Virus genome (UHGV): UHGV-0116252
Strand: one strand, 5' to 3'
DNA from: a virus
DNA: 13,012 nt
Shown: one piece after another, positions 1-11,778 of the stretch
How positions within the stretch are numbered: position 1 is the stretch's first letter
Layout of the letters: the number at the start of each line of letters is the position of its first letter
Translations under genes and position numbers: made by a program
Notes under the pieces: generated by a model
The model's input: only the letters and a program-made list of their open reading frames with translations
Told to the model about the DNA's origin: nothing
Database searches by the model: none

Positions 1-49
1 ATTTTTTGAAAAATGCAAGTATCACGTCGACATCTTCGGCGAAAATTAT

Positions 50-802
50 CTATCTTGTCACTTTTCTCAATTGCGATTCAGCATACGCTTCTTCCTGCCA
101 GCACTTTGTAACCAGTTTATTAATAACGTCTGCATATCCTTTGTACCACTGATAATCCGTCAGGTCCGGTACCAGTTTCTGGACATGATGCCGCGCCAGT
201 GTGGTTGGTAAACGGCTAAACCGGTTTCCATTGCAACGCCCACAAATCTTATAAACAGGCGTGCCATGAAGCCGGGTCCTTTTTTCATCCAGGACAATAC
301 CTTTACCCTTACACCCTCTGCACGCTGTGCTGACTTCTCCCTTACCATGGCAATGCTGACATAGTTCCTTCACCCACTCTTCCTTGATAACAGATTCCCC
401 GCTTCTGGAGTGTTTCACCACTTCGCGCAATACATTATGAAATCCAGTACCAGCACAATGCTCACAGCGAGCCTTACTTGCCGCAGACCTGGAATAATCA
501 GCAAAGGCAAAATTCACAAGGTAAGGAATGATCTGTAGCCGGGTTTCTTCACTCAATTTATTCAATGTCGGGTTATCCAGTGCCATCGCGTAATTGAGCA
601 GACCTTCAATCGCAAACTGAGGATCCTGAACACCAACTTTTGCCAGGAATAAGGCAAACCCAAGCGGTGCTTTCGACTGCACCATCCCCTGCGCAGCCAT
701 CACATCCGTAATCGTTAAACCACCTGAGCCTGTCGCCGGTGCGTCATCGCTCAATTTTGGAGATTTTGGGGAGTAATATTTTGGTAAGGCTTCAAGGTTC
801 AT
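50..802 (-). CDS. Lambdoid late-gene antitermination protein Q
   Basis: Minus-strand ORF whose product carries clustered CxxC motifs (CEHCAGTG, CQHCHGKG, CRGCKGKG, CGRCNG) as in Q-family antiterminators, and it is the last gene of the early operon. Start placed at ATG 802 (MNLEALPK, GGAG 7 nt upstream); the track's GTG at 844 would overlap the upstream gene by 29 nt. Confidence 0.7.
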   Translation of the reverse strand: MNLEALPKYYSPKSPKLSDDAPATGSGGLTITDVMAAQGMVQSKAPLGFALFLAKVGVQDPQFAIEGLLNYAMALDNPTLNKLSEETRLQIIPYLVNFAFADYSRSAASKARCEHCAGTGFHNVLREVVKHSRSGESVIKEEWVKELCQHCHGKGEVSTACRGCKGKGIVLDEKRTRLHGTPVYKICGRCNGNRFSRLPTTLARHHVQKLVPDLTDYQWYKGYADVINKLVTKCWQEEAYAESQLRKVTR

Positions 803-815
803 GCTCGTTCTCCAC

Positions 816-1811
816 TTACGCCAGTACGCCAATTGCCAGCGCACGATCGATAAAACGAAATATCAGCTCCAGCTGGGAGCCATACTTCTCTTCAAATGCC
901 ACGGTATCCGCATGCAGCTCGTCGTGATGCTTTCTGCACAAAGGCAACACAAAGAGGTCATGCGCTTTTGTACCCATTCCACCCTGACCGTGGCCTATCA
1001 GGTGGTGGGGATCATCAGCAGGCTTTCCACAACATGCACACGGCTGTGTCTTAACCCAGCGCGTGTACTTTTCATTAACCCAGCGGCGACGTTTTGGGCG
1101 TAACATAAAAGACTCCGGCGACTCCGGATCCACTTTCAGCGCCAGCACCTTTTTTGCCTTATCCTGGATGATGCTGGTGGCAGGAACCGAAGGCACAAGG
1201 TCACTTTCCCGGGTGACAGACGGCACAACAGGCTTCGGTAATCTCAGTGCCTTACGGGCTGCACTTTCCGGTAAGGCATCCGCCAGGTCATTACGAATCA
1301 GCCACCAGCACAGTTCCGGCATTGTCACAACGTGACTGTCATCAAAACCGAGATCCCGACGCACAACAGACAACACCCAGCGGGCACAGTTATCCGTTGC
1401 CATTGATTCCAGCCGTTCCGTGAACTGATCGCGCAGCTGGTTATCGCAGTGCCAGCACAGACGGATTGCGCCCGGAGCGTGTCGCATTGTGGTCATGTTC
1501 TCGCTGTGCCAGTCGGAATGAGGCCACTGGCAGCCTTTTTCACGAAGTAACCAGCTTTCAAGACATTCCACGCCACCAGCACGACGGATCACTGCCTCAT
1601 TGCGGAACACGGCCCGAACGGCAGGATCATCCGCCAGCGGTTGTGATGCCGCCGGAACGGCACCACTGGCGAAAGATGAATAACGTTCCGGCTCAGGCTC
1701 CAGCAGGACACGCCCCTGCATAAACAGGGGCATCAGCTCTGAACCTGGTCTGAACAATACGATCCCCATACGCGGGGCAATTTCAGGGGTCAGTAGTGCT
1801 CTCACGGTCAC
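816..1811 (-). CDS. DUF968-like phage protein with C-terminal HNH-like Cys/His motif
   Basis: 331-codon ORF, GTG start at 1811 immediately after the KilA-N stop. C-terminus CACCGKP...HHLIGHGQGG...LCRKHHDELH resembles an HNH/zinc-binding motif. Lies between the nin-type genes and Q, as DUF968 genes do in lambdoid prophages. Family assignment is from memory. Confidence 0.55.
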   Translation of the reverse strand: MTVRALLTPEIAPRMGIVLFRPGSELMPLFMQGRVLLEPEPERYSSFASGAVPAASQPLADDPAVRAVFRNEAVIRRAGGVECLESWLLREKGCQWPHSDWHSENMTTMRHAPGAIRLCWHCDNQLRDQFTERLESMATDNCARWVLSVVRRDLGFDDSHVVTMPELCWWLIRNDLADALPESAARKALRLPKPVVPSVTRESDLVPSVPATSIIQDKAKKVLALKVDPESPESFMLRPKRRRWVNEKYTRWVKTQPCACCGKPADDPHHLIGHGQGGMGTKAHDLFVLPLCRKHHDELHADTVAFEEKYGSQLELIFRFIDRALAIGVLA

Positions 1812-1812
1812 C

Positions 1813-2622
1813 TCAATGAACGGTATCGAGCAGCTTTAACAGCTCAGGGAATCGGGATTCGAAGAAATGCGGCTGCGTCTCGCGCGGATTTGCGGGACTG
1901 GTGATGTTCTTGCCGAACATGCAGCCTTTCGCTGTCAGCGACCAGAATTTTTTGATGTTGTTAATCGCGGTACGGCTGTATCGTTCGCGTTGTTCAACGA
2001 TCCCCAGCTTCACCATCTGGTGATATGCCTGATTAGCCGTCAGGCGGATACCATACTGCTTCAGCAGTGCACTCAGCGACAGCGTGGGGCGACTTGAGCC
2101 ATCAGGCGCGTCAGCAGGAGCATCAATGGCATAGCGCGGTGCCAGATTCGGTAAGCCAACAGCCTCCTGAAGCTTCTGACAGGCTCCAAGCACTGATGAG
2201 TTAGACAGATTTAATTCCCGGCGCATAAAGTCCAGCAGAATCACTCCAGCCTGCATCTTGTCAGCAGCCTGTCCGGATAATTTTTCCGGTGCGCTGGTTA
2301 CCATGTCGAAAGTACGGATCACCTTCAGATGGAATGACGGGCTGATCCACATTGCATAGGCATACACCAGTTCCTTGCAGACATAAGTTCCCCGTTCATT
2401 TCCCCCATGAATCACACTCACCGGGTCAACACCCAAATTCTGGGTGTTGGTTAATTCATGAACAAGTTCAACAGTTTGTTGGCTGGAAAGAAACTTTCCT
2501 GGCTCCTTGGTTCTGGCATTTGCACCAGATGCTACTGCTGCGCGATGCAGATCGTTCAGGCTGTAACGCCCATAAGCATCACGACGAACTTCAATACCAT
2601 CAATGACCATCAGATTATTCAT
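1813..2622 (-). CDS. KilA-N domain protein
   Basis: 269-codon ORF with ATG at 2622 and GAGGAG 9 nt upstream. N-terminus (IDGIEVRRDAYGRYSLNDLHRAA) matches the KilA-N DNA-binding domain pattern; C-terminal half not recognised. Confidence 0.6.
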   Translation of the reverse strand: MNNLMVIDGIEVRRDAYGRYSLNDLHRAAVASGANARTKEPGKFLSSQQTVELVHELTNTQNLGVDPVSVIHGGNERGTYVCKELVYAYAMWISPSFHLKVIRTFDMVTSAPEKLSGQAADKMQAGVILLDFMRRELNLSNSSVLGACQKLQEAVGLPNLAPRYAIDAPADAPDGSSRPTLSLSALLKQYGIRLTANQAYHQMVKLGIVEQRERYSRTAINNIKKFWSLTAKGCMFGKNITSPANPRETQPHFFESRFPELLKLLDTVH

Positions 2623-2641
2623 ACTTCGTTTCTCCTCTTAA

Positions 2642-3031
2642 TCAGGCGGCTGCACCCGCCGTTTTCTCGTACTTACTGATAGTGATCTCGACCTTCCCTT
2701 CCGGGATAACCGGTCCCCACTCCACCAGCATTCTTTTCACCTGACTGTCGTCTTCCCACACCCCCGCGTGGGTCAGGGCGTCAAACAGCGCCTTGTTATA
2801 GTTGTCCAGATCGCGGATCCGGTTATCCGGAGGAAACAACACGATCTCCACTGAAGCAGGTGCCGACGTTGGTTTCGGCAGACGACGTAACTGCTCAACT
2901 ATTGCTGCGCACGCCGCACTCTGGAATTTTCGCCCCGCCGCGCTTATCAGGCTCTTACCAGCAAACGCCCCTTTGTTGGGGTGTCGCCAGTACGTGTTCA
3001 CGCTGGGCGGGAAAGGCAGAATCAGCTTCAT
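2642..3031 (-). CDS. rusA: Holliday junction resolvase RusA
   Basis: 129 aa; LPFPPSVNTYWRH and IRDLDNYNKALFDALTHAGVWEDDSQV align with E. coli RusA ([40 protein letters not shown]). ATGA start/stop overlap with the upstream gene. Confidence 0.85.
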   Translation of the reverse strand: MKLILPFPPSVNTYWRHPNKGAFAGKSLISAAGRKFQSAACAAIVEQLRRLPKPTSAPASVEIVLFPPDNRIRDLDNYNKALFDALTHAGVWEDDSQVKRMLVEWGPVIPEGKVEITISKYEKTAGAAA

Positions 3032-3354
3032 ACTTTCAGACCCCTCTCATGTAACCAGTGGGCTGCACGCAGCCTGGCGTTTTCCTCACCGGCAAGCAGT
3101 GAGCGGATAATCCCGACCGCCTCGCTGTCGTCGTCCTTCACCGCGGTATGAAGCGTTATCCCCCGGGCCACGCCACGCTTTATCGTGATGACGCCTTTTT
3201 TCTCCAGTGCGCGAAGATGTTCCACCGCTGCATTCACTGAACGGTATCCCAGCATGGTTGCCACCTCCTGATTGGTTGGCGGGAAGCCACGTTCTTTCTG
3301 GTAAGAAATCAGCATATCCAGCACCTGCTGCTGGCATTGAGTTAACGTCGTCAT
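3028..3354 (-). CDS. LexA N-terminal DNA-binding domain homolog lacking the S24 peptidase domain
   Basis: 108 aa; residues 6-70 (QQQVLDMLISYQKERGFPPTNQEVATMLGYRSVNAAVEHLRALEKKGVITI) closely parallel the LexA winged-helix domain (RQQEVFDLIRDH...[36 protein letters not shown]). No Ser/Lys autocleavage module follows. ATGA overlap with the Dam gene. Confidence 0.65.
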   Translation of the reverse strand: MTTLTQCQQQVLDMLISYQKERGFPPTNQEVATMLGYRSVNAAVEHLRALEKKGVITIKRGVARGITLHTAVKDDDSEAVGIIRSLLAGEENARLRAAHWLHERGLKV

Positions 3355-4004
3355 GCCGCCATCTCCCTGACCAGTTTTTCCGCCTGCTGACGAACCTGCT
3401 CCAGAAACGCCTCACCACATGCCTCAAGTTCATCGCGCCCGATGTAGCTGATTGCCGGTCCCTTCCAGGTCTTGTCGAAAACAGCAATAGCACCAGCGAA
3501 GAAAGCGCCTGTCAGCACCTGCTTCTCGTCCTTCGGGATAAACCAGGCAGGCAGTTCAAAACCAATACGCCCGCGAATAAAAGCAATATGATCTGCATCT
3601 TCCGGCCACCACACTTCGCTGGTGGCAGCTTTGATCAGGAAAACATAGCGCCCGCCCTTATCACGCATGGCACTGGCATGCTTCATGATGTAACGCATGC
3701 CGGTGATGTATTGCCCTTCATGCTGACTGGCGCGGCTGTACGGGGGATTACCAAAGGCAGCACCTTTAAGCTCCGCAAGACGTTCAGACCAGTCATGCGC
3801 CAGCGCGTTGTCTTCCGCAGTGTAATAAGCGGCACATTTGGCGTTATCACCATCAGTGAACAGATCCAGAACAAACGGGCCAAACAGGGTGTTAATTCCC
3901 CAGAAAATGTTGTCCGGCGTGCGCCACTGATCGCCCACTTCCTTCAGTTCATGGGCTGGTTTGTTCCGCAGTTCCACCAGCGCCTGGCAATATTTATTAC
4001 TCAT
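3351..4004 (-). CDS. Phage-type DNA N6-adenine methyltransferase (Dam family)
   Basis: NPPY catalytic motif (AFGNPPYSR) plus an upstream WRTP...DLFTDG block typical of phage Dam methyltransferases. Start set at ATG 4004 (MSNKYCQ), which overlaps the upstream stop as TAATG, rather than the track start at 4037. Confidence 0.75.
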   Translation of the reverse strand: MSNKYCQALVELRNKPAHELKEVGDQWRTPDNIFWGINTLFGPFVLDLFTDGDNAKCAAYYTAEDNALAHDWSERLAELKGAAFGNPPYSRASQHEGQYITGMRYIMKHASAMRDKGGRYVFLIKAATSEVWWPEDADHIAFIRGRIGFELPAWFIPKDEKQVLTGAFFAGAIAVFDKTWKGPAISYIGRDELEACGEAFLEQVRQQAEKLVREMAA

Positions 4005-4492
4005 TAAGCCCCCACGTAATTCCCTGACAGATACCACTCTTCACCCGATGCAGCGCGCTTGCTGCTTTTCCGTAAGCACCGCTCACGACGCGCCAGAAAA
4101 TTGTTTCGTTCTGGCTGGGAGTGGCTTTCACGGAATGCCGCCATCCACACCGTTGCAGCACGACGGTATAGGCCCCTGGACTCCAGTTCTTCAGCCTGGC
4201 GGGTCAGGCACAAAATCACCCGTGGATCGTTAGTGCCGACATAGAAATTGCGCACAGGTCTGGTTTCACGAACTGGTTGTGGTTCCGGCTCCTGCGCTCT
4301 CTCAGTCAGGCGCGGGAAATGTCTGCGTGTATCCCCTTCACAACGGTGAGCCACACGCCCACTCTGACGTAACTTGCTTGCTGACTGCAGAACGCGCTGC
4401 CGTGAGTAACCTGCAAAAGCATCCGCAATGTCTCCGGAAGTACACCCCGGATGGGCTTCAATGAATTTCTGAACTTCATTCAAAAGACTCAT
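4004..4492 (-). CDS. PerC-like transcriptional regulator (tentative)
   Basis: C-terminal segment AEELESRGLYRRAATVWMAAF...ERNNFLARRERCL matches the PerC-family signature as I recall it (LESKGLWRRAA..W). Start placed at ATG 4492 (GGGGG about 5 nt upstream); the track starts at GTG 4498. Confidence 0.45.
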   Translation of the reverse strand: MSLLNEVQKFIEAHPGCTSGDIADAFAGYSRQRVLQSASKLRQSGRVAHRCEGDTRRHFPRLTERAQEPEPQPVRETRPVRNFYVGTNDPRVILCLTRQAEELESRGLYRRAATVWMAAFRESHSQPERNNFLARRERCLRKSSKRAASGEEWYLSGNYVGA

Positions 4493-4494
4493 GA

Positions 4495-5436
4495 TCACCC
4501 CCTGAATCCTGCCGGGATCTGGCTGTAGTCCACGTTGTCGTAACTGGATTTGAAATACGGGTCTTCGCGTTTTTCTGTGTATGTGCTGATGGACGGCGAT
4601 AAGCGCAGGGAAAGCTCATCCCATTTTTCCCGCAGCTTCGACGGGCTGAGCACGTTACGGCACCAGAACGGATCGCGGCTGACGCGGCTGTACATCTCGC
4701 AGATTTGTTTGTGAGTACGACCATCCTGCACACACATCAGGCGAATTTCGTTTGCCCAGGCTGTCCAGTTCGGTTCTTTGGGACGAACCACCTCGCCGTC
4801 ACATTCGGCGGCCTGCTCGTACAGGGCGATGATTTTTTTCCAGAGCCACTGTGCGCAGGTCAAATCATCCTGCGTCCCCCACTGGCGCTTTTTAGGGCTG
4901 AATACAACCGCATCAGGATGGCGAGTTAAAAAATACTGTTCAGCCGTCTGCGTGTCCGGTTGCGAAGCATCCGGACGAGAAGGTTTTTTATCTGACGGAT
5001 CATGTTTTGATTTTACTGACGGATCCCCGCCAGATTCTGACGGGTGAAAACCCGCTTTTTTGCCAGATTTCGACGCATCAAATTTTGACGGGTCAGATTT
5101 TGATGCGTCAGATTTTGACGGGTCAGAATCTGACAGTTGAGAAAATGCCGCTGCCTGAAGCTTCGCAACGTTAAGCTGATAAACATTCGACGCATTGCGG
5201 TTACCCTGGCGACGCGCCTTACGCGTTAACCAGCCTTCTGCTTCCAGCCGTGCGATAGCCGTTCTGACGGTACTCATCCCCGCGCCAATCTGGCGGGCAA
5301 TGGTTTCAATTGATGGCCAGCACACACCTTCGTCATTACTGAAATCAGCCAGGCGGGCCATAATTGCCACGCTGGATAATTTCATGCCTGACGCAGCGCA
5401 ACCATCCCATACATAGCCGGTTAATTTAGTGCTCAT
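4495..5436 (-). CDS. Replication initiator: N-terminal HTH, repeat-encoded linker, DnaT-like C-terminus
   Basis: 313 aa; N-terminal HTH-like segment (SIETIARQIGAGMSTVRTAIARLEAEGW); central low-complexity linker (DPSKSDASKSDPSKFDASKS) encoded by tandem 15-bp DNA repeats; C-terminal end SQIPAGFRG resembles the E. coli DnaT C-terminus (recalled as SQIPPGFRG). ATG 5436 with GAGG 6 nt upstream. Confidence 0.7.
   Translation of the reverse strand: MSTKLTGYVWDGCAASGMKLSSVAIMARLADFSNDEGVCWPSIETIARQIGAGMSTVRTAIARLEAEGWLTRKARRQGNRNASNVYQLNVAKLQAAAFSQLSDSDPSKSDASKSDPSKFDASKSGKKAGFHPSESGGDPSVKSKHDPSDKKPSRPDASQPDTQTAEQYFLTRHPDAVVFSPKKRQWGTQDDLTCAQWLWKKIIALYEQAAECDGEVVRPKEPNWTAWANEIRLMCVQDGRTHKQICEMYSRVSRDPFWCRNVLSPSKLREKWDELSLRLSPSISTYTEKREDPYFKSSYDNVDYSQIPAGFRG
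4990..5138. repeat. Iteron-like direct repeats inside the replication gene (candidate origin)
   Basis: Five tandem 15-bp units at 5064, 5079, 5094, 5109 and 5124 (cagatttcgacgcat, caaattttgacgggt, cagattttgatgcgt, cagattttgacgggt, cagaatctgacagtt), plus degenerate copies at 5031-5045, 5011-5025 and 4990-5003. Lambda ori also lies inside the initiator gene. Confidence 0.6.
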
Positions 5437-5445
5437 GACCGACCT

Positions 5446-5784
5446 CTATTTCCCTGAATTTACGACGAAACTGTTCGAGCGGGCTGAAGCACTCATGCTC
5501 ATAGCCTTCGCGGAGGTAGATAACTCGTTGTGTTTCCGGCTCCCAACGAATGACTCTGACGGGCACTCCGTAGTGATCTTTGAACCAGCGGTTAACTTGT
5601 CGCAAAGGACTGTCTCCTTCTGCCGGTTGAAATCACCCACAGCCCACTCAGCAAAGCTGTGGGTTACAATTTCCCTGTCACCTGGTACATTAACTGCATA
5701 GCAATACTCCACCTTCGCTTTTCCACCCGGTACAGGAAGCGCAATCAGTTGCGAGCGACGGTAGTGTGTTGTTAAACTGTTCAT
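5446..5784 (-). CDS. Hypothetical protein, possibly frameshifted
   Basis: ATG 5784 overlaps the upstream stop (ATGA). The first ~55 codons look protein-like; the C-terminal half is Ser-rich and low complexity, while the -1 frame over 5426..5605 gives a more protein-like sequence ([58 protein letters not shown]). Confidence 0.35.
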
Positions 5785-6344
5785 GCGTTAGTTTCTCCAC
5801 AGTCACGACACGCCACGGCGCCCGGAGCTGCACACTCGCGGGCGTCATTACTTTCTGAAATGCAAAAGATTTTGTAGACCAGTGCTGCATGCTCCTGCAG
5901 CTTCGAAATTGAGAGATACAGCTCGTCGTTAATTGCTGTCTTCTCATGCGGTTCCACCACACCGTCTTCGATTGCCGAACGAATCTGTCTGGAATAACTG
6001 CCAATCTGTTCAATGACTTCCAGCAGGCGCTGGTTAATATCGGCGTTGTCCACATCCTCGACGTCAGGAAGAGACACAAAGACGCCATTTGCAGACTGCG
6101 CCACAGCATCAGCAATGAAGTGAGTGCCACCAGCACGTTGTAAAATCATTGCCCATCCCAGCGGGAAAATCTGATCGCCATCGGCACGAAGGCGGTTAAA
6201 TAATGCGTTTTCTGTTACATCCAGCCAGTCAGCTGCTTCAGCGTAACCACCCGGCAACGCCGCGATAGTTTTTCTGACAGCTTTCACGTACCACTCAGGC
6301 TGTTTTTCTACTTTCCAGTGATGCTTACCCACGGTTAGCCTCAT
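5781..6344 (-). CDS. CII-like / YdaT-family early regulator (tentative)
   Basis: 187-aa ORF directly downstream of the YdaS-like cro gene; the segment [25 protein letters not shown] resembles the HTH region of phage CII-like (CP76/YdaT) proteins as I recall them. Position matches cII in lambdoid maps. Confidence 0.45.
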
Positions 6345-6375
6345 CGTTCTGTGGTTAAAAATTGAAGGTGTTCTG

Positions 6376-6576
6376 TTAATCTTTCGGATAGATATCCGGT
6401 CTTAAGTCAGATTTCGTAATTGCACCTGACGTGCATTGCTCAAGTTTTTTAGCCAGCACAAAACTGGCTTTTTTATAACCATTGAAAACCAGCCGTAAGT
6501 AGCCTGGTGTTGAGCCAACTTTTCCGGCCAACTCACCCTGCTGTTCTTTGGTTAAAGAGTCCCAATACGCTTTCAT
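6376..6576 (-). CDS. Cro-like repressor (YdaS/DUF1019-type HTH)
   Basis: 66-aa product MKAYWDSLTKEQQGELAGKVGSTPGYLRLVFNGYKKA...ITKSDLRPDIYPKD; the C-terminal LRPDI motif resembles YdaS-type Cro. ATG 6576 with GGAGGT 9 nt upstream. Divergent from the CI gene. The track ORF 6376..6879 is an artefactual upstream extension. Confidence 0.7.
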   Translation of the reverse strand: MKAYWDSLTKEQQGELAGKVGSTPGYLRLVFNGYKKASFVLAKKLEQCTSGAITKSDLRPDIYPKD

Positions 6577-6666
6577 ACAATATGTACCTCCGGTATACAT
6601 ATTACATGATTGAGATGAACCTTCAAGATACTTGTACCTTAACGGTACAAGGGTTTTAATTTCGTT
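6577..6666. promoter_or_regulatory. Divergent immunity-region promoters and operators (pR/pRM-like)
   Basis: Perfect palindrome CTTGTACC-ttaac-GGTACAAG at 6631..6651; imperfect palindrome ATATGTA-N9-TACATAT at 6580..6602. Candidate pR on the minus strand: -35 TTGAAG (6626..6621), 16-bp spacer, -10 TAATAT (6604..6599). Candidate pRM on the plus strand: -35 TTGTAC (6632..6637), -10 TTTAAT (6655..6660), with no SD before the CI ATG at 6667. Confidence 0.6.
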
Positions 6667-7341
6667 ATGAAAACAATCCATGACATCCGGCGGTCTAACG
6701 CCAGAAAACTGAGAGATGGTGTTGGCGGGAATTCTTCCTTTGCCACCATGATTGATCGCGAGCCAACCCAGACCAGCAGGTTTATGGGAGATGGTGCAAC
6801 TAAAAATATCGGTGACAGCATGGCACGGCACATCGAAAAATGTTTCGACCTGCCTGTCGGATGGCTTGATCAAGAACACCAGACAACGAACATCACAAAA
6901 AAACCTGACGTTTCAATCACTAACAAACAAATAACGTTAGTCCCTGTCATATCATGGGTACAGGCCGGAGCATGGAAAGAAGTTGGCTATTCTGAGGTTG
7001 ATTTGAGCACAGCAGAAACTTATCCCTGCCCTGTACCCTGTGGCGAAATGACTTATATCTTGCGGGTGATTGGTGATTCAATGATTGATGAGTACCGCCC
7101 GGGAGACATGATTTTTGTTGATCCTGAAGTCCCTGCCTGCCACGGTGACGACGTTATTGCATTGATGCACGATACAGGCGAAACCACCTTCAAGCGGTTG
7201 ATAGAAGATGGAACACAGCGTTATCTCAAAGCATTAAACCCAAACTGGCCTGAGCCTTACATTAAGATTAACGGTAATTGCTCTATAATTGGTACAGTGA
7301 TTTTCTCAGGAAAACCAAGAAGATACATAATAAAGGCCTAA
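6667..7341 (+). CDS. CI-type prophage repressor (HTH plus S24 LexA-like peptidase domain)
   Basis: 224 aa; N-terminal HTH region ending in VGWL, linker, then C-terminal S24 autocleavage domain with Ser motif VIGDSM and Lys motif TFKRL. Divergent from cro. Confidence 0.85.
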   Translation: MKTIHDIRRSNARKLRDGVGGNSSFATMIDREPTQTSRFMGDGATKNIGDSMARHIEKCFDLPVGWLDQEHQTTNITKKPDVSITNKQITLVPVISWVQAGAWKEVGYSEVDLSTAETYPCPVPCGEMTYILRVIGDSMIDEYRPGDMIFVDPEVPACHGDDVIALMHDTGETTFKRLIEDGTQRYLKALNPNWPEPYIKINGNCSIIGTVIFSGKPRRYIIKA

Positions 7342-7352
7342 TCAATATTTAT

Positions 7353-7376
7353 AACCTGCTTCGGCAGGTTTTTTTA
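7353..7376 (+). terminator. Rho-independent terminator after the repressor gene
   Basis: Stem aacctgc (7353..7359), loop ttcg, stem gcaggtt (7364..7370), followed by a run of T to 7375. Begins 12 nt after the CI stop. Confidence 0.65.
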
Positions 7377-7379
7377 TAC

Positions 7380-7412
7380 TTGACAATGTACCTTTGGGAT
7401 ACATAATGTATC
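7380..7412 (+). promoter_or_regulatory. pL-like sigma70 promoter with overlapping operator palindrome
   Basis: -35 TTGACA (7380..7385), 16-bp spacer, -10 CATAAT (7402..7407). Perfect palindrome GATACAT-a-ATGTATC (7398..7412) overlaps the -10, and an ATGTACC half-site (7386..7392) matches the OR half-sites. Confidence 0.55.
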
Positions 7413-7797
7413 TAAAAGAAACACAGCACAGGCAAGATTAAACAAAATTTGGTTGTAACACGGCGTATGGCACATGCGTCGTTAGCGGTCTGGGGACGTT
7501 AAAGGGGACAATCCACTCCTTGCTCGGGCAAACAAACCAGGTAGCCGGAATGTGCAAGCCACAGCCAGGTATGAGCGATTGATTCACCATCAAGGCGATA
7601 CGGTGTGACCACCAGGGAAGAGTCCTGGCTACAACACGAGAGCGCACTTCATCGACTCAACTTTGAGCTTTGTCGTTAAATTTTGAAATGGCGGAGTGCG
7701 CTCCCGGTTGTGGTGAACAGGTGTTTAACGGGAACTCCCTGCCCGTTACCCGGTTCGATTCCGGGCGCCCATCATCAATTTGCTGTGTTTAGTCTTT

Positions 7798-7826
7798 GCC
7801 CAGTCCGCACGATGGGCCATTTTTTC
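7798..7826 (+). terminator. Candidate weak intrinsic terminator within the ORF-poor region
   Basis: GCCCA (7798..7802) pairs with TGGGC (7813..7817) around a 10-nt loop, followed by cattttttc with six T at 7820..7825. Short stem, so weak. Confidence 0.3.
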
Positions 7827-7918
7827 ACACAGCCAGGTTTTATCGCTGTGCCTGAGTCCCCAACAGGAGAGGCCAAACCCGCAGCGTGACACCAGGGAAA
7901 GACCGGAGGAAGTACCAC

Positions 7919-7986
7919 GCCTGACCAGCGTTGACCATGAGCCTGACCAGCTCAAAACAGGAAAGACCAGCCCGGGCCTGACCAGC
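7919..7986 (+). repeat. Three exact copies of the 11-mer GCCTGACCAGC in non-coding DNA
   Basis: Exact copies at 7919..7929, 7941..7951 and 7976..7986, interspersed with related GAAAGACCAG (7961..7970) and TTGACCATGAG (7931..7941). Confidence 0.8.
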
Positions 7987-8126
7987 CCTGTACGGTCGTA
8001 ATGGAAACATAACGACGCCGGAAACGTAACCGGCACCCTTTAGATGGCAAAAGACCCGCACAAGGCGGGCCAGTTACCCCGAACGGCGACCAAACCATTC
8101 GGATTTATCACAAGTGACCAAACTTG

Positions 8127-8142
8127 TGATGAGGAAAGACCA
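8127..8142 (+). repeat. Copy 1 of conserved 16-nt motif TGATGAGGAAAGACCA, followed by ACG not ATG
   Basis: Same motif as at 8527 and 11699, including the GAGGA Shine-Dalgarno core; preceded by the hairpin TCACAAGT-gaccaa-ACTTGTGA (8108..8129). The position corresponding to the start codon reads ACG (8143..8145). Confidence 0.7.
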
Positions 8143-8191
8143 ACGACAGAGCCGCTGATCGGTTCTGAGTATACCCCACTAAGGAGTCGCT

Positions 8192-8512
8192 ATGGAAGCG
8201 CGCACAATCCCAGTAACACTCTTTATTCATTATGCAACTTCAACTTTCAGCCATGAAAAGCTGTTTATTGCGACGGTTGATATGTCAAAAAATTTTCCAG
8301 ACAGGTACATCCTTCTGGAAAGCCGCGAAATTGAAATTACCGTCAACCAGCCCCAGCCAATCGACATCATCGGTTTACAGGTTGAGCAGCTGCGTGAGCA
8401 AAAACAGAAAACAGCCGCCGACGCCCAACAGCGTATTGCTGCTATCGATGACAAAATCCAGCAGTTACTTTGCATCGAATACACGCCAGATACCGATGAA
8501 ATCCCCTACTAA
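8192..8512 (+). CDS. Hypothetical protein (106 aa) with predicted C-terminal coiled coil
   Basis: ATG 8192 preceded by AAGGAG (8181..8186) with 5-nt spacing; first convincing ORF downstream of the pL-like promoter. No family recognised. Confidence 0.6.
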   Translation: MEARTIPVTLFIHYATSTFSHEKLFIATVDMSKNFPDRYILLESREIEITVNQPQPIDIIGLQVEQLREQKQKTAADAQQRIAAIDDKIQQLLCIEYTPDTDEIPY

Positions 8513-8526
8513 AGACCACTGACCTG

Positions 8527-8542
8527 TAATGAGGAAAGACCA
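8527..8542 (+). repeat. Copy 2 of conserved motif TAATGAGGAAAGACCA directly before the ATG at 8543
   Basis: Identical 15/16 to copy 1; supplies the Shine-Dalgarno for the 737-aa gene. Confidence 0.7.
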
Positions 8543-10756
8543 ATGACCATTTTTAACGGCTTGTTAGAAGCGAAAAAAGGCGCGCTCAAAAACGGCGCGA
8601 TCCCGGCGCTGGCCATCGCCATCGACGCCCCTAACAAAAAAGTTGCCGAGAACATCATCATCGGCAAATTGTGGGAAGCCTACCCTGACCACGGCGACAA
8701 CTATTTCAAACCTAAAATCTGGGAAGATGCCCCGGGCCAACCGCGCCCAGGCGTTGGTGAGTTTGATGAGACGTTCGCCACAGAACACAGTTTTGATGGC
8801 GAAAAATGGGTAGTTAACACCCCCGTTGTAGATAGCGGTTCAGCAGATATCGCACAGGTTAACGACCTGATGAAACTGCCGGCTCGTGAACGATTCGCCG
8901 CCGTTCTGCTGTTCAGCCACGACGCCAACGAAGTCGACAGTGAATTGCTTGCGCAGACGCGTGAATACCTAGAGATGCTCGACAACAGTGATACTGACAG
9001 TGAGGATGAGGTTGACGCATTTAACCGCATCGTTCTTGATGCCATGGTGGCGTGTAAGCCCATCGAGTACATGCATATTGCTGGATTGAATAATCTGGTA
9101 CATGCAATTTTGGCAAGTTGCGATACCCAGGAACAAAACCCGACCAGTTGGACTATCTCCAAATTTATAAAAAAATGGGTAGAGAATCCCGGTAAACGCG
9201 ATGAAATGCTGCCGGAGGTAAAACTAGAAACAGCATCCGCACGTCCTTACCAACAGACTCACGCCACACTGGAACGTGAAATTGCCTGCGCCCTGTTACC
9301 CGTTGGCCCGGAAAAAATCACCCCCAGCGTCCTGAAAGCGGCAGACGAAATAATCAGCCAGGACCGGGAGGATTTTAAACGCTGGTCAATGGCCTTGCGC
9401 ACAACGGATCAGATCCTTGCCTATGACCGCGCATCAGTATTCGGTGTTATTCAGCGCGCCCCCGCAAAAGACACGTACCACTTCCCGCAATCCCTGCGCA
9501 GTCACATCGACAACTGGCTGCAAGCTAACGGGCAGCGTGATGCAAATGCTGTTGAAGAGAAGCCAAAGGAAGCAGCACCAAAGGATGATGTAAAAGTCAC
9601 CAACCACGGCGGCGGGCGATTCTCAATTGATGGAATGATGTCAGAAACACCCTCAAATCAGGGCGAAAAAAGCGAAGCAGCAAATGCTGGAGAACGTAGT
9701 TTGCAGCAGTTGCGTGAGCGGTTTGTCACGCCTCGCCATGTGTATGACGTACCTGAAAATAACGCCGTCTCACAGAGGGAACCTGCAGCTATTACCCCGG
9801 CAGAAGAGACTCCTCCACAAGAAAAACTTAGCGAGCAGGTAAAGGATCTGGTGCAGAACGTTGACGCGCTGGTTGAGCGGATCCATACCGAAGAGCACAA
9901 GCGGCAGAATGCAATCTCAGCTATCGAAACGGAGTTAAAGGACTCCGACGACACAGATAACCTGGCATTGTGGAAGAACGTATTCAAAACCGATGAGCGC
10001 TTCACCAGTGCTTTCTCTCAGAACGGCGGCGGCACATCCATCAACGGCACTTATATAGCGATGAAAGCGACTCGCGAATTTGGGCCGTTTGGTATTGGCT
10101 GGGGTGTAGAGGTGGTGGAAGAGCGTTTTGATAAAGGCGCACCGATAGTTCGCAAAAAACAGGTTGGTGAAAAAATAGAATGGGATCTGATTCAAGACGG
10201 TGTTGGCGGGTACCTATGTGAAATGCACCACACCATGAAAGTTAGAGTCTGGTACATATTGAATGGAGTGCGCGGTGAGTCCGAGGCTTACGGATGCACA
10301 CCTTATATCTACGACACTAAATACGGACCAACAAGCGACGGCGAAGCACCGAAGAAATCCTGGACGGATGCTGTTAAGAAAGCGCTATCCCCTCTCGGAT
10401 TCAGCGCCGATATTTTCATGGGCCTGTACGACAATCCGGAATACCGCCAGAGGAATAAAGCTGAGTTTGATATCAAGAATGCCAGCGAGAATGCGGAAGA
10501 TGCTACCCGTCTGCGTAAGGAACTGGATGAGAAGCTTATCAACGTTGCCAATACGCTGGCCTCCGCGGTAACCACTAACGAAGTAAACAAGGTATTTGGC
10601 CTCATCGCCCGCGAAGTGGATGTACACCGAAAAGCAGCAGAAGCCAAAGGCGATAAAGAATATTCATCGTATCTGGGATCGCGCCTGCGCCGTATCACCG
10701 ACATCAAAACTGAACGCCTCGCCGCCCTCACCGCTGCACAGGAGCAAACCGCATGA
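8543..10756 (+). CDS. Rad52/Sak-type single-strand annealing protein with an unrecognised ~490-aa N-terminal region
   Basis: Uninterrupted 737-codon ORF. C-terminal ~250 aa carries Rad52-fold blocks: GGGTSINGTYIAMKATREFGPFGIGWG (compare human RAD52 [27 protein letters not shown]), KVRVWYILNGVRGESEAYG, and KKSWTDAVKKALSPLGFSADIFMG (compare [21 protein letters not shown]). N-terminal 490 aa has no motif I recognise and includes an acidic stretch DNSDTDSEDEVD. Confidence 0.7.
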   Translation: MTIFNGLLEAKKGALKNGAIPALAIAIDAPNKKVAENIIIGKLWEAYPDHGDNYFKPKIWEDAPGQPRPGVGEFDETFATEHSFDGEKWVVNTPVVDSGSADIAQVNDLMKLPARERFAAVLLFSHDANEVDSELLAQTREYLEMLDNSDTDSEDEVDAFNRIVLDAMVACKPIEYMHIAGLNNLVHAILASCDTQEQNPTSWTISKFIKKWVENPGKRDEMLPEVKLETASARPYQQTHATLEREIACALLPVGPEKITPSVLKAADEIISQDREDFKRWSMALRTTDQILAYDRASVFGVIQRAPAKDTYHFPQSLRSHIDNWLQANGQRDANAVEEKPKEAAPKDDVKVTNHGGGRFSIDGMMSETPSNQGEKSEAANAGERSLQQLRERFVTPRHVYDVPENNAVSQREPAAITPAEETPPQEKLSEQVKDLVQNVDALVERIHTEEHKRQNAISAIETELKDSDDTDNLALWKNVFKTDERFTSAFSQNGGGTSINGTYIAMKATREFGPFGIGWGVEVVEERFDKGAPIVRKKQVGEKIEWDLIQDGVGGYLCEMHHTMKVRVWYILNGVRGESEAYGCTPYIYDTKYGPTSDGEAPKKSWTDAVKKALSPLGFSADIFMGLYDNPEYRQRNKAEFDIKNASENAEDATRLRKELDEKLINVANTLASAVTTNEVNKVFGLIAREVDVHRKAAEAKGDKEYSSYLGSRLRRITDIKTERLAALTAAQEQTA

Positions 10757-11322
10757 GCACCGCTATCGCTATTGCAAAAGAATATGCCAGCCTGATTGAC
10801 CTGCTGGAAACCTCCGACGAACTGACGCCAGAGATGATCGCCGACACGCTTGAAGGTATGGAAGGAGAACTGGGAGACAAACTGGACGCCATGATGGTCA
10901 TCTGCCGCAATTTACAGGGCAATGCCAATACCTGCGCTGAAGAAATGTCTCGCCTGGCTACCCGTAAGACGTCCTTTGAAGGCAAGGAAAAAGCAATCCG
11001 AAAGCATATGCTCGCCTGCCTGCAAGCTGCTGGCCTGGATAAACTGAAAACCGCAAAAAACACATTTACTGATGCACAGGGGGCTATCCGGGTAATTATC
11101 GATAGCAAAGATAAGATCCCGGATGAGTATGAAGGCGTGTCACTTGTTGATGTAGAAACGGTTATTACACCAAACAAGCGAGCCATTAAAGAAGTGATTG
11201 AATCTGCGGAGGCGGTTGCCGTCGAAATACTGGCGCGTGGAGAAACACCACCAGCCGAGTTATTAAACCCGGTACCAGGCGCACATCTGGAACGCGGCGA
11301 ACGTTCACTGAGGGTACGCTAA
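10753..11322 (+). CDS. Siphovirus Gp157-like protein (recombination-module accessory), tentative
   Basis: 189 aa, start overlaps the annealase stop (ATGA). Coiled-coil-like N-terminus, then IPDEY and PGAHLERG motifs that I recall as typical of the Gp157 family, which commonly sits next to Sak/Erf-type annealases. Confidence 0.55.
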   Translation: MSTAIAIAKEYASLIDLLETSDELTPEMIADTLEGMEGELGDKLDAMMVICRNLQGNANTCAEEMSRLATRKTSFEGKEKAIRKHMLACLQAAGLDKLKTAKNTFTDAQGAIRVIIDSKDKIPDEYEGVSLVDVETVITPNKRAIKEVIESAEAVAVEILARGETPPAELLNPVPGAHLERGERSLRVR

Positions 11323-11504
11323 TGCTTAAACTCACATTAAAGCGTGGTGACGCGGTTCACCTGGTACTTGCCGATGGAACCAACGGCATTATTGAAGCAC
11401 GGAGCCGCTGCGAACTTGGGCTACACCTGCCAGAAAACATTAAGGTCACGCGGGAGAAATCGGCATTCCCCCCACCAGAACTGATTACGCCTAATCAGAA
11501 ATAA
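11322..11504 (+). CDS. Small CsrA-like protein (tentative)
   Basis: 60 aa, TAATG coupling to the upstream gene, GAGGG about 8 nt upstream. Ungapped alignment to E. coli CsrA (61 aa) conserves M1, L2, L4, T5, G9, G33, P37, V42, R44 and E45 at identical positions (ours LGLHLPENIKVTRE; CsrA IGVNAPKEVSVHRE). Confidence 0.4.
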   Translation: MLKLTLKRGDAVHLVLADGTNGIIEARSRCELGLHLPENIKVTREKSAFPPPELITPNQK

Positions 11505-11553: not shown

Positions 11554-11778
11554 ATGCTGCGATGGCAACCGGGAGCAACTCTGCTCTCCGCATTTGATAT
11601 CAAAATTGGCCGACTGTCGGCCAGCGTCAGGAAACAGGCTGTGACCGAGTCTGATATTGCCCGTGCCTGCAAGGCGGCAGATGACGCAATAAGCTACATA
11701 ATGAGGAAAGACCATGAGAAGCGATCACGACATAATCACCAGAGAAGAAATGGTCGAGCTGACGGGAAGCCCACTTAA
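11554..11778 (+). CDS. Hypothetical small protein (weak call)
   Basis: ATG 11554 with GGAGG 6 nt upstream. The N-terminal ~50 codons look protein-like; the 3' end overlaps the xis-like gene in another frame. Confidence 0.3.
   Translation: MLRWQPGATLLSAFDIKIGRLSASVRKQAVTESDIARACKAADDAISYIMRKDHEKRSRHNHQRRNGRADGKPT
11699..11713 (+). repeat. Copy 3 of conserved motif TAATGAGGAAAGACC directly before the ATG at 11714
   Basis: Same motif as at 8127 and 8527; supplies the Shine-Dalgarno for the excisionase-like gene. Confidence 0.7.

What the first reader, a model, noticed from the sequence alone, without database searches (positions are those of the whole stretch)
7919..7986. Three exact copies of GCCTGACCAGC within 70 bp of non-coding DNA
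The copies at 7919, 7941 and 7976 fall in different reading frames of every overlapping ORF, so the repetition is at nucleic-acid level, not a peptide repeat. Related units (GAAAGACCAG, GTGACCAAAC, GCGACCAAACC) continue to 8124. Irregular spacing (22 and 35 bp) suggests a protein-binding cluster or RNA motif repeats rather than a tandem satellite.
Basis: seen in the sequence. Interest (0 to 1): 0.45.

Follow-up and report, generated by a model that had tools for sequence, protein, structure and literature searches.

The report
Recurring RNA hairpin at prophage gene starts
The three repeated 11-mers are the loops and closing base pairs of three small RNA hairpins; the same hairpin, paired with a fixed ribosome-binding motif, sits in front of early genes in a widespread family of enterobacterial prophages and probably marks those genes for a shared, still unidentified control of translation.

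Summary
GCCTGACCAGC occurs exactly at 7919, 7941 and 7976, all on the + strand, in the roughly 780-nt untranslated leader of a prophage early-left (PL-type) operon.

Each copy is a short hairpin: a 3-4 bp stem that differs between copies but stays complementary, and a 7-nt loop CUGACCA.

In about 170 related prophage loci from E. coli to Serratia, the same hairpin (loop NUGACCN) recurs. It lies just after a stop codon and places its GACC 25-30 nt upstream of the GACC in an invariant ribosome-binding motif, GAGGAAAGACC(A). This pairing precedes five unrelated early gene families and always follows the direction of transcription. In the window that motif serves the exonuclease gene (8543) and the excisionase gene (11714), and a start-less copy lies at 8129.

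The leader also carries two covarying hairpins with GACCAA loops. WGACC occurs 9 times in 271 nt on the + strand (shuffles 0.9) and never on the - strand.

The 11-mer is not a host-wide REP-like repeat: 1 copy in 200 kb of host DNA against 5 in 20 kb of early prophage DNA.

My best reading is a set of RNA-level operator sites for an unidentified RNA-binding factor that controls early-gene translation. The mechanism is inferred, not shown. The closest analogue is the SAS/ESAS pair of cluster K mycobacteriophages.

The parts
7353..7370 (+). Intrinsic-terminator-like hairpin followed by a T run, after the cI-like repressor gene (6667-7341)
   Evidence: Terminator scan; Peptidase_S24 repressor
7380..7407 (+). 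PL-like promoter, TTGACA-16-CATAAT (11 of 12). It overlaps an operator-like sequence at 7386-7405 that repeats the one at 6582-6601.
   Evidence: family D7. That the whole leader is transcribed from here is inferred.
7447..7650 (+). Structured RNA element with no Rfam family. It also occurs next to tRNA genes in unrelated phages. It ends in the hairpin CCAGG-GAAGAGU-CCUGG, which is preceded by GUGACCA.
7779..7827 (+). Mimic of the 3' half of RprA (UUGCUGUGU.UAGUCUU) followed by an intrinsic terminator. It occupies the position that DicF holds in K-12 Qin.
7886..7906 (+). GUGACAC followed by a hairpin (7892-7906: CC(A)GG / CCGG) with a GAAAGA loop. Contains GGAAAGACC at 7896.
   Evidence: stems of GAAAGA hairpins covary across leaders
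7918..7930 (+). Hairpin 1: stem CGC/GCG, loop CUGACCA (11-mer copy 1, 7919-7929)
   Evidence: orthologous hairpin in BUCT709
7939..7953 (+). Hairpin 2: stem GAGC/GCUC, loop CUGACCA (11-mer copy 2, 7941-7951)
   Evidence: the orthologue in BUCT709 has loop AUGACCA
7960..7968 (+). Linear copy of GGAAAGACC, with no start codon after it
7974..7988 (+). Hairpin 3: stem GGGC/GCCC, loop CUGACCA (11-mer copy 3, 7976-7986). This is the copy that aligns with the hairpin found across the family, GGGC-AUGACCA-GCCC.
8055..8069 (+). Hairpin CCCGC-ACAAG-GCGGG. In relatives it is CCCAC/GUGGG followed by a U-rich tail, that is, terminator-like.
8079..8102 (+). Hairpin (CCGAA/UUCGG plus an inner GG/CC) that displays CGACCAAA in its loop
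   Evidence: helix 2: 4 of 7 pairs change on both sides
8107..8130 (+). 9-bp hairpin with an invariant GACCAA hexaloop (8116-8121)
   Evidence: helix 3: 8 of 9 pairs change on both sides, 91% of cells paired
8129..8145 (+). AUGAGGAAAGACCA followed by ACG. This is an exact copy of the ribosome-binding motif of the exonuclease and excisionase genes but without a start codon. Relatives have AUG at this position.
8147..8167 (+). Hairpin CAGAGCCG-CUGAU-CGGUUCUG, just upstream of the Shine-Dalgarno sequence (8181-8186) of the 106-aa gene (ATG at 8192)
   Evidence: helices 4-5
8529..8545 (+). AUGAGGAAAGACCA-AUG: ribosome-binding motif of the 737-aa RecE/YdfE-like exonuclease gene
11701..11716 (+). 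AUGAGGAAAGACC-AUG: ribosome-binding motif of the excisionase (DUF4224) gene
11322..11504 (+). 60-aa ORF (phrog_2482), a weak CsrA-like candidate for the trans-acting factor. It is present in 59 of 59 loci that extend far enough to contain it.
   Evidence: negative results

Best explanation
**What it is (shown).** Each GCCTGACCAGC is the 7-nt loop CUGACCA plus the two closing G-C pairs of a small hairpin in the RNA transcribed from the + strand. The three hairpins lie in the long untranslated leader of the prophage's early-left operon. That operon runs: PL-like promoter at 7380-7407, 106-aa protein, RecE/YdfE-like exonuclease, Gp157, 60-aa protein, excisionase, integrase.

The hairpin is one half of a two-part element that recurs across this prophage family. 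The layout is: stop codon of the upstream gene, then 0-9 nt, then a hairpin with loop NUGACCN, then 11-15 nt, then GAGGAAAGACC, then 0-4 nt, then the start codon. The loop and the ribosome-binding motif each display WGACC. The two copies lie 25-30 nt apart.

**How it most likely works (inferred).** The WGACC motifs are binding sites on the mRNA for one sequence-specific RNA-binding factor, probably an oligomer.
- At gene starts it would bridge the upstream hairpin and the site between the Shine-Dalgarno sequence and the AUG. That would set the translation of a defined subset of early genes, most simply by repressing it.
- The leader carries 3-12 such sites, 10 including one CGACC in this window. 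It would act either as the high-affinity entry or autoregulatory operator for the operon, or as a sink that titrates the factor.

The factor is not identified. The only candidate with any support is the 60-aa protein encoded in the same operon, which is weakly CsrA-like.

The confidence of 0.5 is for the inferred mechanism. I put the descriptive part (an RNA hairpin that belongs to a family-wide start-associated module) at about 0.9.
For: **Hairpin.**
- Around the exact 11-mer there are 38 distinct contexts (262 occurrences). The third pair is formed in 37 of 38 (C-G 28, A-U 5, G-C 4) and the fourth in 34 of 38. No shuffle out of 2000 reached either value.
- 31 of 64 distinct NTGACCA contexts have a flanking stem of at least 3 bp, against about 4.5% for random 7-nt loops.
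- The three window copies have different stems: CGC/GCG, GAGC/GCUC and GGGC/GCCC.

**Link to gene starts.**
- A search that did not specify the loop sequence found a 7-nt-loop hairpin upstream of 138 of 191 distinct GGAAAGAC gene starts. Loop positions 2-6 (UGACC) were at least 92% conserved.
- The spacing between the two GACC motifs is 25-30 nt in 145 of 229 modules. The hairpin's first loop base lies 4-13 nt after the upstream stop codon.
- Five unrelated gene families carry the module.
- Modules occur on both early operons, always in the sense of transcription, and never in the late region.

**Selection in the leader.**
- The architecture is kept from E. coli to Serratia, where the neighbouring protein is only 43-55% identical.
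- On 18 diverse leaders the covariation score is 0.298 against 0.144 for shuffles (0 of 500 as high) and at most 0.096 for slid partners. The GACCAA hairpin has compensatory changes in 8 of 9 pairs and an invariant loop.
- WGACC occurs 3-12 times per 684 nt on the + strand. It is absent from the - strand in 83 of 99 leaders.

**Candidate factor.** Pfam CsrA is the top family for 13 of 20 homologues of the 60-aa protein, with a best E-value of 9e-4. A profile-profile comparison with CsrA gives P = 0.0018 over residues 1-46. The predicted strands lie at 2-6, 11-15, 21-25 and 30-34.
Against: - There are no expression, structure-probing or binding data. Transcription of the leader from 7380-7407 rests only on a consensus match and an operator-like repeat.
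- The factor is hypothetical.
  - The CsrA likeness of the 60-aa protein is below the Pfam threshold (13-14 bits against 27).
  - A profile search of PDB sequences and of 1.84 billion proteins gives no link to CsrA.
  - Its more distant relatives lose the CsrA-like arginine.
- Canonical CsrA recognises GGA, and the NUGACCN loop has no GGA.
- The window's own exonuclease and excisionase start regions lack a clear upstream hairpin.
- Co-occurrence of the modules with the operon's proteins is explained by shared synteny and is not independent evidence.
- Four-base-pair stems are weak, so some hairpins may not form in vivo.
Confidence: 0.5

Rival explanations
1. **mRNA punctuation.** The hairpins mark sites where the polycistronic early transcripts are processed. 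RNase E would cut in the A/U-rich spacer between the hairpin and the ribosome-binding motif. The hairpin would then protect the 3' end of the upstream segment. The leader copies would stabilise or process the leader and its small RNAs.
For: The hairpin sits immediately after stop codons and is followed by an A/U-rich spacer such as UUUAACUUAUACC or UAUAAAACC. The leader lies just downstream of an sRNA cassette homologous to the dicF locus. From memory, the dicF product is made by processing.
Against: Stems of 4 bp with 7-nt loops are poor barriers to exonucleases. This reading does not explain why loop positions 2-6 are over 92% conserved while the stems drift. It also does not explain why the same WGACC recurs between the Shine-Dalgarno sequence and the AUG.
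Confidence: 0.17
2. **boxB-like antitermination sites.** The hairpins with loops CUGACCA, GACCAA and GAAAGA would be bound by an N-like factor. That factor would let RNA polymerase read through the RprA-like terminator and the second terminator-like hairpin into the operon.
For: P22 nutL boxB is GCGC-UGACAAA-GCGC. This has the same stem and a 7-nt loop containing UGAC, as in the commonest form here, GCGC-CUGACCA-GCGC. GAAAGA and GAAGAGU loops recall the lambda boxB loops GAAAA and GAAGA (from memory). One or two terminators lie in the leader.
Against: No leader has a boxA: GCTCTTTA is found in 0 of 101. No arginine-rich N-like ORF was found; the first gene encodes an acidic, folded protein. 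The loops are 6-7 nt rather than the boxB pentaloop, and the register differs by one base. nut sites lie once per operon near the promoter, whereas these elements lie at gene junctions at a fixed distance from start codons. The PL-nun region of HK022 shows no similarity.
Confidence: 0.1
3. **DNA-level junction cassettes or relics.** The hairpin plus ribosome-binding motif would be a conserved linker at which related phages recombine and exchange genes. The leader copies would be debris of lost gene starts, or binding sites for a DNA-binding protein.
For: The module flanks five different gene families in mosaic early regions. The window and its close relative GF131 share the PL side but have different PR sides. 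Copy number changes by a 15-nt insertion or deletion between direct repeats, giving 2 or 3 copies. Start-less copies of the ribosome-binding motif exist.
Against: Linker homology or a duplex-DNA site would conserve stem and loop equally. Here the stems covary and the loops are fixed. The three hairpins are orthologous in BUCT709 at 72% overall identity, and the leader architecture persists to Serratia. That argues for purifying selection, not debris. The strict strand bias follows transcription.
Confidence: 0.1
4. **Molecular mimicry or decoy.** The 7-nt loop C-U-GAC-C-A would imitate a tRNA anticodon loop (U33-type turn, GAC or AAC = valine anticodons) or another host RNA. It would bind or titrate a host enzyme or an RNA-targeting defence nuclease.
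For: The geometry is a 4-5 bp stem with a 7-nt loop and an invariant U at loop position 2. The upstream structured element sits next to tRNA genes in other phages. GGAAAGACC is identical to 23S rRNA positions 2056-2064.
Against: Loop position 6, equivalent to tRNA position 37, is C, whereas tRNAs have a purine there. Sharing of k-mers with the rrn operon is not above shuffles: 24 against 18 +/- 5.5. The fixed distance to start codons is not explained.
Confidence: 0.05

Closest known systems
Start-associated sequences (SAS) and extended SAS (ESAS) of cluster K mycobacteriophages (Pope et al. 2011, PMC3203893; read)
   Same: Both have a conserved motif next to the start codon of a subset of genes. 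Both have an upstream inverted repeat in front of a subset of those genes. All copies have one orientation, the arrangement is conserved across related phages, and the function is unknown but suspected to be translational.
   Different: There is no sequence relationship. ESAS are imperfect 17-bp inverted repeats with a 4-13 bp spacer, whereas here the stem is 3-6 bp and the 7-nt loop is conserved. The hosts here are Enterobacterales. An array of the elements in an untranslated leader has not been described for SAS/ESAS.
CsrA/RsmA operators and CsrB/RsmZ sponge RNAs
   Same: Both use a short motif displayed in the loop of a small hairpin plus a second copy overlapping the ribosome-binding site. 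The spacing would suit a dimer; the 10-63 nt range for CsrA is from memory. Both have a multi-site untranslated RNA. A small protein in the operon is faintly CsrA-like.
   Different: The shared motif here is WGACC, not GGA. The CsrA likeness of the 60-aa protein is below threshold and has no support from fold searches. No binding is shown.
boxB hairpins of nut sites in P22 and lambda
   Same: GC-rich 4-5 bp stem. The P22 nutL loop UGACAAA resembles CUGACCA. The location is in early-operon RNA of a lambdoid prophage.
   Different: There is no boxA, no N-like protein, a different loop length and register, many copies, and placement at gene junctions.
   Same: Both are short intergenic palindromic units placed after stop codons, sometimes in clusters.
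   Different: The element is not host-wide: 1 copy without a stem in 200 kb of host DNA. It is confined to the early operons of one prophage family, has a single orientation, and has no REP consensus.
Translational operators of phage T4 (RegA, gp32, gp43) and the thrS operator
   Same: These also use shared or mimicking RNA elements at translation-initiation regions, which let one protein control several early mRNAs. This comparison is from memory.
   Different: There is no sequence relationship and no identified repressor.

Membership tests
REP/BIME-like genome-wide repeat | Hundreds of copies spread through host intergenic regions | tested here: not met
   The 11-mer occurs once in 200 kb of host chromosome, inside cyoC and without a stem. 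It occurs 5 times in the 20-kb early region of the prophage and 0 times in the 22-kb late region.
Tandem repeat / satellite | Head-to-tail copies with a regular period | tested here: not met
   Tandem Repeats Finder reports no array in 7400-8250 at a minimum score of 30. The spacings are 22 and 35 nt.
nut site (boxA + boxB) of lambdoid phages | A boxA (CGCUCUUUA-like) a few nucleotides upstream of the hairpin | tested here: not met
   GCTCTTTA is found in 0 of 101 leaders. P22 nutL shows CGCTCTTTAAC for comparison.
nut site (boxA + boxB) of lambdoid phages | A GNRA-like pentaloop on a 5-bp stem, with one site per early operon near the promoter | tested here: not met
   The loops are 7 nt (NUGACCN) or 6 nt (GACCAA, GAAAGA). 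There are several copies per leader and copies at gene junctions.
nut site (boxA + boxB) of lambdoid phages | An N-like protein with an arginine-rich motif encoded downstream | tested here: not met
   The first gene encodes an acidic protein predicted as a beta-sheet plus a long helix. No conserved arginine-rich ORF was found.
CsrA/RsmA binding sites | A GGA core, usually in a hairpin loop, with one site overlapping the Shine-Dalgarno sequence | tested here: inconclusive
   GAGGAAAGACC and the GAAAGA hairpins contain GGA. The NUGACCN and GACCAA loops do not.
CsrA/RsmA protein family (the 60-aa ORF at 11322-11504) | A significant match to Pfam PF02599 and the CsrA fold | tested here: inconclusive
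SAS/ESAS-type start-associated elements (an analogy, not homology) | A conserved motif within a few nucleotides of the start codons of a subset of genes, in one orientation | tested here: met
   GAGGAAAGACC lies 0-4 nt before the start codon in 229 distinct modules and five gene families, always in the sense of transcription.
SAS/ESAS-type start-associated elements (an analogy, not homology) | An upstream inverted repeat in front of a subset of the motif copies | tested here: met
   138 of 191 gene-start contexts have a 7-nt-loop hairpin ending 10-25 nt upstream.
tRNA anticodon stem-loop mimic | A 7-nt loop with U at position 33 and a purine at position 37 | tested here: not met
   U at loop position 2 is conserved (128 of 138). 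The position equivalent to 37 is C in 127 of 138.
Any Rfam family | A covariance-model match at or near the gathering score | tested here: not met
   In 7400-8200 the only matches are RprA (37 bits, gathering score 70) at 7717-7827 and noise. Nothing covers 7880-8190 on the + strand.

The most novel reading that the evidence does not exclude
A self-contained post-transcriptional regulon carried by a prophage. A small dimeric RNA-binding protein encoded in the early-left operon would have a specificity shifted from GGA to WGACC; the 60-aa CsrA-like ORF is the only candidate. It would bind two sites per gene, a hairpin loop and the spacer between the Shine-Dalgarno sequence and the AUG, in front of the recombination, excision and replication-associated genes. 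The multi-site PL leader would act as its sponge or autoregulatory operator. This would be a phage-borne counterpart of the Csr/Rsm system.
Probability: 0.12. Interest if true: 0.8.

Novelty: new variant of a known kind. Interest (0 to 1): 0.55.

Why it matters
Temperate phages of enterobacteria are thought to time their early genes mainly through repressors, antiterminators and a few antisense RNAs. A fixed two-part RNA signature in front of the exonuclease, excisionase and several replication-region genes would point to an additional, shared layer of translational or mRNA-level control that has not been described. The signature is also multiplied in the leader of the operon that ends in xis and int. 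It is conserved from Escherichia to Serratia.

The family is very common as prophages: the leader region matched 1,898 of 5,426 complete E. coli genomes, 444 of them over at least 80% of its length. It is almost absent from collections of isolated phages, so the family is essentially unstudied.

The element is short, sharply defined and easy to mutate. The question can therefore be tested directly. The hairpin would also serve as bait to find the binding factor.

Tried and rejected
- **Known RNA families and tRNAs.** Nothing covers the repeat region.
- **Peptide repeat or leader peptides.** Mini-ORFs exist but are not conserved. ATG and ACG alternate at the same position and frames differ.
- **rRNA mimicry.** GGAAAGACC equals 23S rRNA 2056-2064, but overall k-mer sharing with the rrn operon is at shuffle level. 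No accessible complementary rRNA segment was found.
- **A complementary RNA partner (UGGUCA).**
  - The only recurrent sites are the reverse complements of PR-side modules and one coding motif (FKRWS) inside the exonuclease gene.
  - The conserved GGUC of the upstream structured element lies inside a helix.
  - Inspecting the sequences by eye, the RprA-like sRNA offers only 6-7 nt of complementarity to GAAAGAC.
- **N/nut and put-type antitermination.** No boxA, no arginine-rich protein, and no similarity to the HK022 PL-nun region.
- **The 106-aa first gene as an RNA binder.** The model is confident (pLDDT 86), but there is no informative fold match and the protein is acidic.
- **The 60-aa protein as a CsrA homologue.** It remains a weak lead only.
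- **A sigma-70 promoter reading of CTGACC/TTGACC.** Inspecting the sequences by eye, there is no matching -10 hexamer at a suitable distance.
- **Named isolated phages that carry the module.** Only Stenotrophomonas phages BUCT708 and BUCT709 turned up.
- **Literature searches for the motifs.** Nothing relevant was found.

Full report
**1. Observation**

GCCTGACCAGC occurs exactly three times in the window, at 7919, 7941 and 7976, all on the + strand. There is no other exact copy in 13 kb. Spacings of 22 and 35 nt put the copies in three different reading frames. Tandem Repeats Finder reports no array.

The wider signal is the pentamer WGACC (W = A or U). It occurs nine times on the + strand of 7880-8150. 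Shuffles give a mean of 0.87 and a maximum of 5 in 5000. It does not occur on the - strand of that region.

**2. Context**

The window is the early region of a lambdoid prophage.
- Homologous E. coli prophages sit next to the tRNA-Leu/Cys/Gly cluster by pgsA-uvrC-uvrY.
- A cI-like S24 repressor gene (6667-7341) is followed by a terminator (7353-7370).
- Next comes a near-consensus promoter, TTGACA-16-CATAAT (7380-7407). It overlaps an operator-like sequence that repeats one found on the other side of the repressor gene.
- About 780 nt with no annotated or conserved ORF follow.
- The operon then encodes a 106-aa protein (8192), a 737-aa RecE/YdfE-like exonuclease (8543), Gp157, a 60-aa protein (11322), an excisionase (11714) and an integrase.

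The repeat therefore lies in the 5' leader of the early-left operon. Transcription from 7380-7407 is inferred, not shown.

The leader matched 1,898 of 5,426 complete E. coli genomes, 444 of them over at least 80% of the query. Among isolated phages, only Stenotrophomonas phages BUCT708 and BUCT709 carry it.

**3. What the 11-mer is**

The flanks of the three copies differ but are complementary: C-GC...GC-G, GA-GC...GC-UC and GG-GC...GC-CC. Each copy is therefore a 3-4 bp stem with the 7-nt loop CUGACCA.

I collected about 170 related loci:
- a pattern scan of IMG/VR with the start of the 106-aa gene;
- a scan of genome contigs with the exonuclease;
- contigs encoding Serratia homologues;
- a scan for the module itself.

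Results:
- Around the exact 11-mer there are 38 distinct contexts. The next pair outward is formed in 37 of 38 (C-G 28, A-U 5, G-C 4) and the one after in 34 of 38. No shuffle out of 2000 reached either value. Pairs further out are at chance level.
- 31 of 64 distinct NTGACCA contexts in the leaders have a stem of at least 3 bp. About 4.5% of random 7-nt loops do.
- The three hairpins are orthologous in BUCT709 at 72% overall identity, with loops CUGACCA, AUGACCA and CUAACCA. They are therefore old, not a recent triplication.
- A sister lineage has two copies through a 15-nt insertion or deletion between direct repeats.

**4. The hairpin belongs to a two-part element at gene starts**

The 14-mer ATGAGGAAAGACCA occurs three times in the window. 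It precedes the ATG of the exonuclease gene (8529) and of the excisionase gene (11701). In the leader (8129) it is followed by ACG, where relatives have ATG.

Across the family:
- Whole genome of BUCT709: every GGAAAGACC lies in the PL leader or directly before an early gene on either early operon, apart from two copies inside coding sequence (17608 on the + strand, 5307 on the - strand). The PR-side copies are preceded by GCGC-CUGACCA-GCGC, which contains the finding's 11-mer.
- Close relative GF131: of its five exact 11-mers, three are in the leader and two are canonical modules on the PR side. There are none in the 22-kb late region.
- A search for any 7-nt-loop hairpin, without specifying the loop, upstream of 191 distinct GGAAAGAC gene starts found one in 138. 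Loop positions 2-6 (UGACC) were at least 92% conserved. The few variants were mostly AGACC.
- Geometry is tight: stop codon, 0-9 nt, hairpin, 11-15 nt, GAGGAAAGACC, 0-4 nt, start codon. The loop GACC lies 25-30 nt from the GACC of the ribosome-binding motif in 145 of 229 modules.
- Five unrelated gene families carry the module.
- All copies follow the direction of transcription.

**5. The rest of the leader**

Two further hairpins display GACCA in their loops, at 8079-8102 and 8107-8130.

On 18 diverse leaders:
- The four-hairpin structure I specified is 82% paired, against 73% for shuffles (0 of 500 as high).
- The covariation score is 0.298, against 0.144 for shuffles and at most 0.096 when partners are slid by 1-3 columns.
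- The GACCAA hairpin has compensatory changes in 8 of 9 pairs and an invariant loop.

A third hairpin class has a GAAAGA loop closed by G-C on a covarying stem, usually preceded by UGACAG. The window has one at 7892-7906.

Across 99 distinct leaders, counts per leader are:

| Element | Count per leader |
|---|---|
| NUGACCN hairpins | 0-3 |
| GACCAA-type hairpins | usually 1-2 (none in one leader) |
| GAAAGA hairpins | 0-4 |
| Linear GAGGAAAGACC copies | 1-3 |
| WGACC on the + strand | 3-12 |
| WGACC on the - strand | 0 in 83 of 99 leaders |

The arrangement persists in Serratia prophages whose 106-aa protein is only 43-55% identical. That indicates purifying selection on the RNA elements rather than decay of former gene starts.

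**6. Is it a generic host repeat?**

No. In 200 kb of host chromosome the 11-mer occurs once, inside cyoC and without a stem. GAGGAAAGACC does not occur at all. The only GGAAAGACC is in 23S rRNA.

**7. Mechanism**

Shown:
- The elements are RNA-level, or at least strand-specific and structure-constrained.
- The hairpins have fixed loops.
- They have a fixed positional relation to a conserved ribosome-binding motif.
- They are confined to early operons.

Inferred:
- A conserved loop on a drifting stem is the signature of recognition by a trans-acting partner.
- Two copies of WGACC, one in a loop and one between the Shine-Dalgarno sequence and the AUG, 25-30 nt apart, fit bridging by an oligomeric RNA-binding protein that would occlude or remodel the ribosome-binding site.
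- A leader with up to a dozen sites would then be its operator or its sink.

I looked for the partner and did not find it.
- **RNA partner.** No conserved complementary RNA exists.
- **106-aa protein.** It is acidic and has no informative fold match.
- **60-aa protein.** It aligns without gaps to CsrA over residues 1-46. The E. coli CsrA sequence I recalled was confirmed against the database. Pfam CsrA is the top family for 13 of 20 homologues (best E = 9e-4), and hhalign gives P = 0.0018. Against this, the scores are below threshold, fold searches and profile searches give no support, and more distant relatives lose the CsrA-like arginine. I treat it as a lead only.

**8. Rivals**

- **mRNA processing or stability punctuation.** It fits the position after stop codons and the A/U-rich spacer. 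It does not explain the conserved loop or the weak 4-bp stems.
- **boxB-like antitermination.** P22 nutL boxB, GCGCUGACAAAGCGC, was verified in the P22 genome and looks strikingly similar. However, the leaders have no boxA (0 of 101), no N-like protein, a different loop size and register, and the wrong placement. The HK022 PL-nun region is unrelated.
- **DNA-level linkers or relics.** This is contradicted by covariation, by strand bias and by deep conservation.
- **Mimicry of a tRNA anticodon loop or of rRNA.** It fails on the pyrimidine at the position equivalent to 37. Sharing of k-mers with the rrn operon is at chance level.

**9. Comparison with what is known**

The nearest described thing is the start-associated sequence (SAS) with its extended inverted repeat (ESAS) in cluster K mycobacteriophages. 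Its function is also unknown (PMC3203893). The resemblance is in architecture only: the sequences, dimensions and hosts differ. A leader array has not been reported there.

I found no paper describing the motifs reported here.

**10. Verdict**

The thing itself is a previously undescribed, widely distributed start-associated RNA module of an unstudied prophage family, multiplied in the early-left leader. Its mode of action remains to be shown. I rate it as a new variant of a known kind and moderately interesting.

Noticed in passing
window 7779-7827 (Rfam match 7717-7827): The prophage carries a mimic of the 3' half of the core sRNA RprA. UUGCUGUGU.UAGUCUU is invariant between K-12 rprA and five prophage leaders, including one from Serratia. 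It is followed by an intrinsic terminator whose stem covaries. Rfam RprA scores 37 bits here and 50 bits in BUCT709, below the gathering score of 70.
   Followed up: partly
window 7637-7716 compared with K-12 Qin (L129 4230-4280): The scaffold just upstream of the RprA-like sRNA is homologous to the region just upstream of dicF in the K-12 Qin prophage (...UGUCGUUAAAUUUU...GUGCGCU(C/U)CCGGUUGUGG...). It includes a 12-bp long-range helix, 7637-7648 with 7695-7706. The two prophages appear to share an sRNA slot that holds DicF in one and an RprA mimic in the other.
   Followed up: partly
window 7447-7650; also L004 2440-2600 (SPN1S), L005 2410-2590 (D6), L003 4940-5110: A structured RNA of about 200 nt with several covarying helices and no Rfam family. 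It lies directly after the PL-like promoter here. In unrelated phages it sits beside tRNA genes: before tRNA-Arg in SPN1S and right after tRNA-Met in D6. BLAST also finds it in SJ46 and in Klebsiella and Enterobacter phages. Many of the 515 plasmid matches in E. coli genomes probably carry it as well.
   Followed up: partly
window 7693-7775: A tRNA-like segment with a perfect T-arm (CCCGG-UUCGAUU-CCGGG) followed by CGCCCAUCA. Rfam tRNA-Sec scores only 19 bits and ARAGORN calls nothing. Not all related leaders have it.
   Followed up: no
window 11322-11504: A 60-aa ORF (phrog_2482) with a faint, full-length resemblance to CsrA. Pfam gives E = 0.1 here and 9e-4 for the best homologue. It has an invariant C-terminal LI.PNQK motif of its own. 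It is present in 59 of 59 loci long enough to contain it.
   Followed up: yes
window 9376-9388 compared with 7921-7932: Inside the exonuclease gene, AAACGCUGGUCAA (which encodes the conserved FKRWS) is complementary to leader hairpin 1 plus GUU. In relatives it is complementary to 13-14 nt of the PR-side module UGACCAGCGUUUAA. This is probably coincidence, helped by protein-coding conservation.
   Followed up: partly
window 7896, 7960, 8133, 8533, 11705: GGAAAGACC is identical to 23S rRNA positions 2056-2064, the A2058 region that is the Erm and TLR13 target sequence. Overall similarity of the leader to the rrn operon is not above chance, so this is probably coincidental.
   Followed up: yes
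window 5061-5135 (- strand): A long, near-perfect hairpin made of repeated TGACG/CGTCA-type units lies inside the replication (O-like) gene region. It surfaced only as a spurious Rfam microRNA match. It is possibly the iteron or origin region.
   Followed up: no
window 1-6600 compared with GF131 (L130): The window and its closest E. coli relatives share the PL side at 93-97% identity. Their repressors and PR-side genes differ: cII/CP76, O-like and PerC-like here, against YdaS/YdaT, RepO and DnaB there. As a result the window's PR operon carries none of the hairpin modules.
   Followed up: partly
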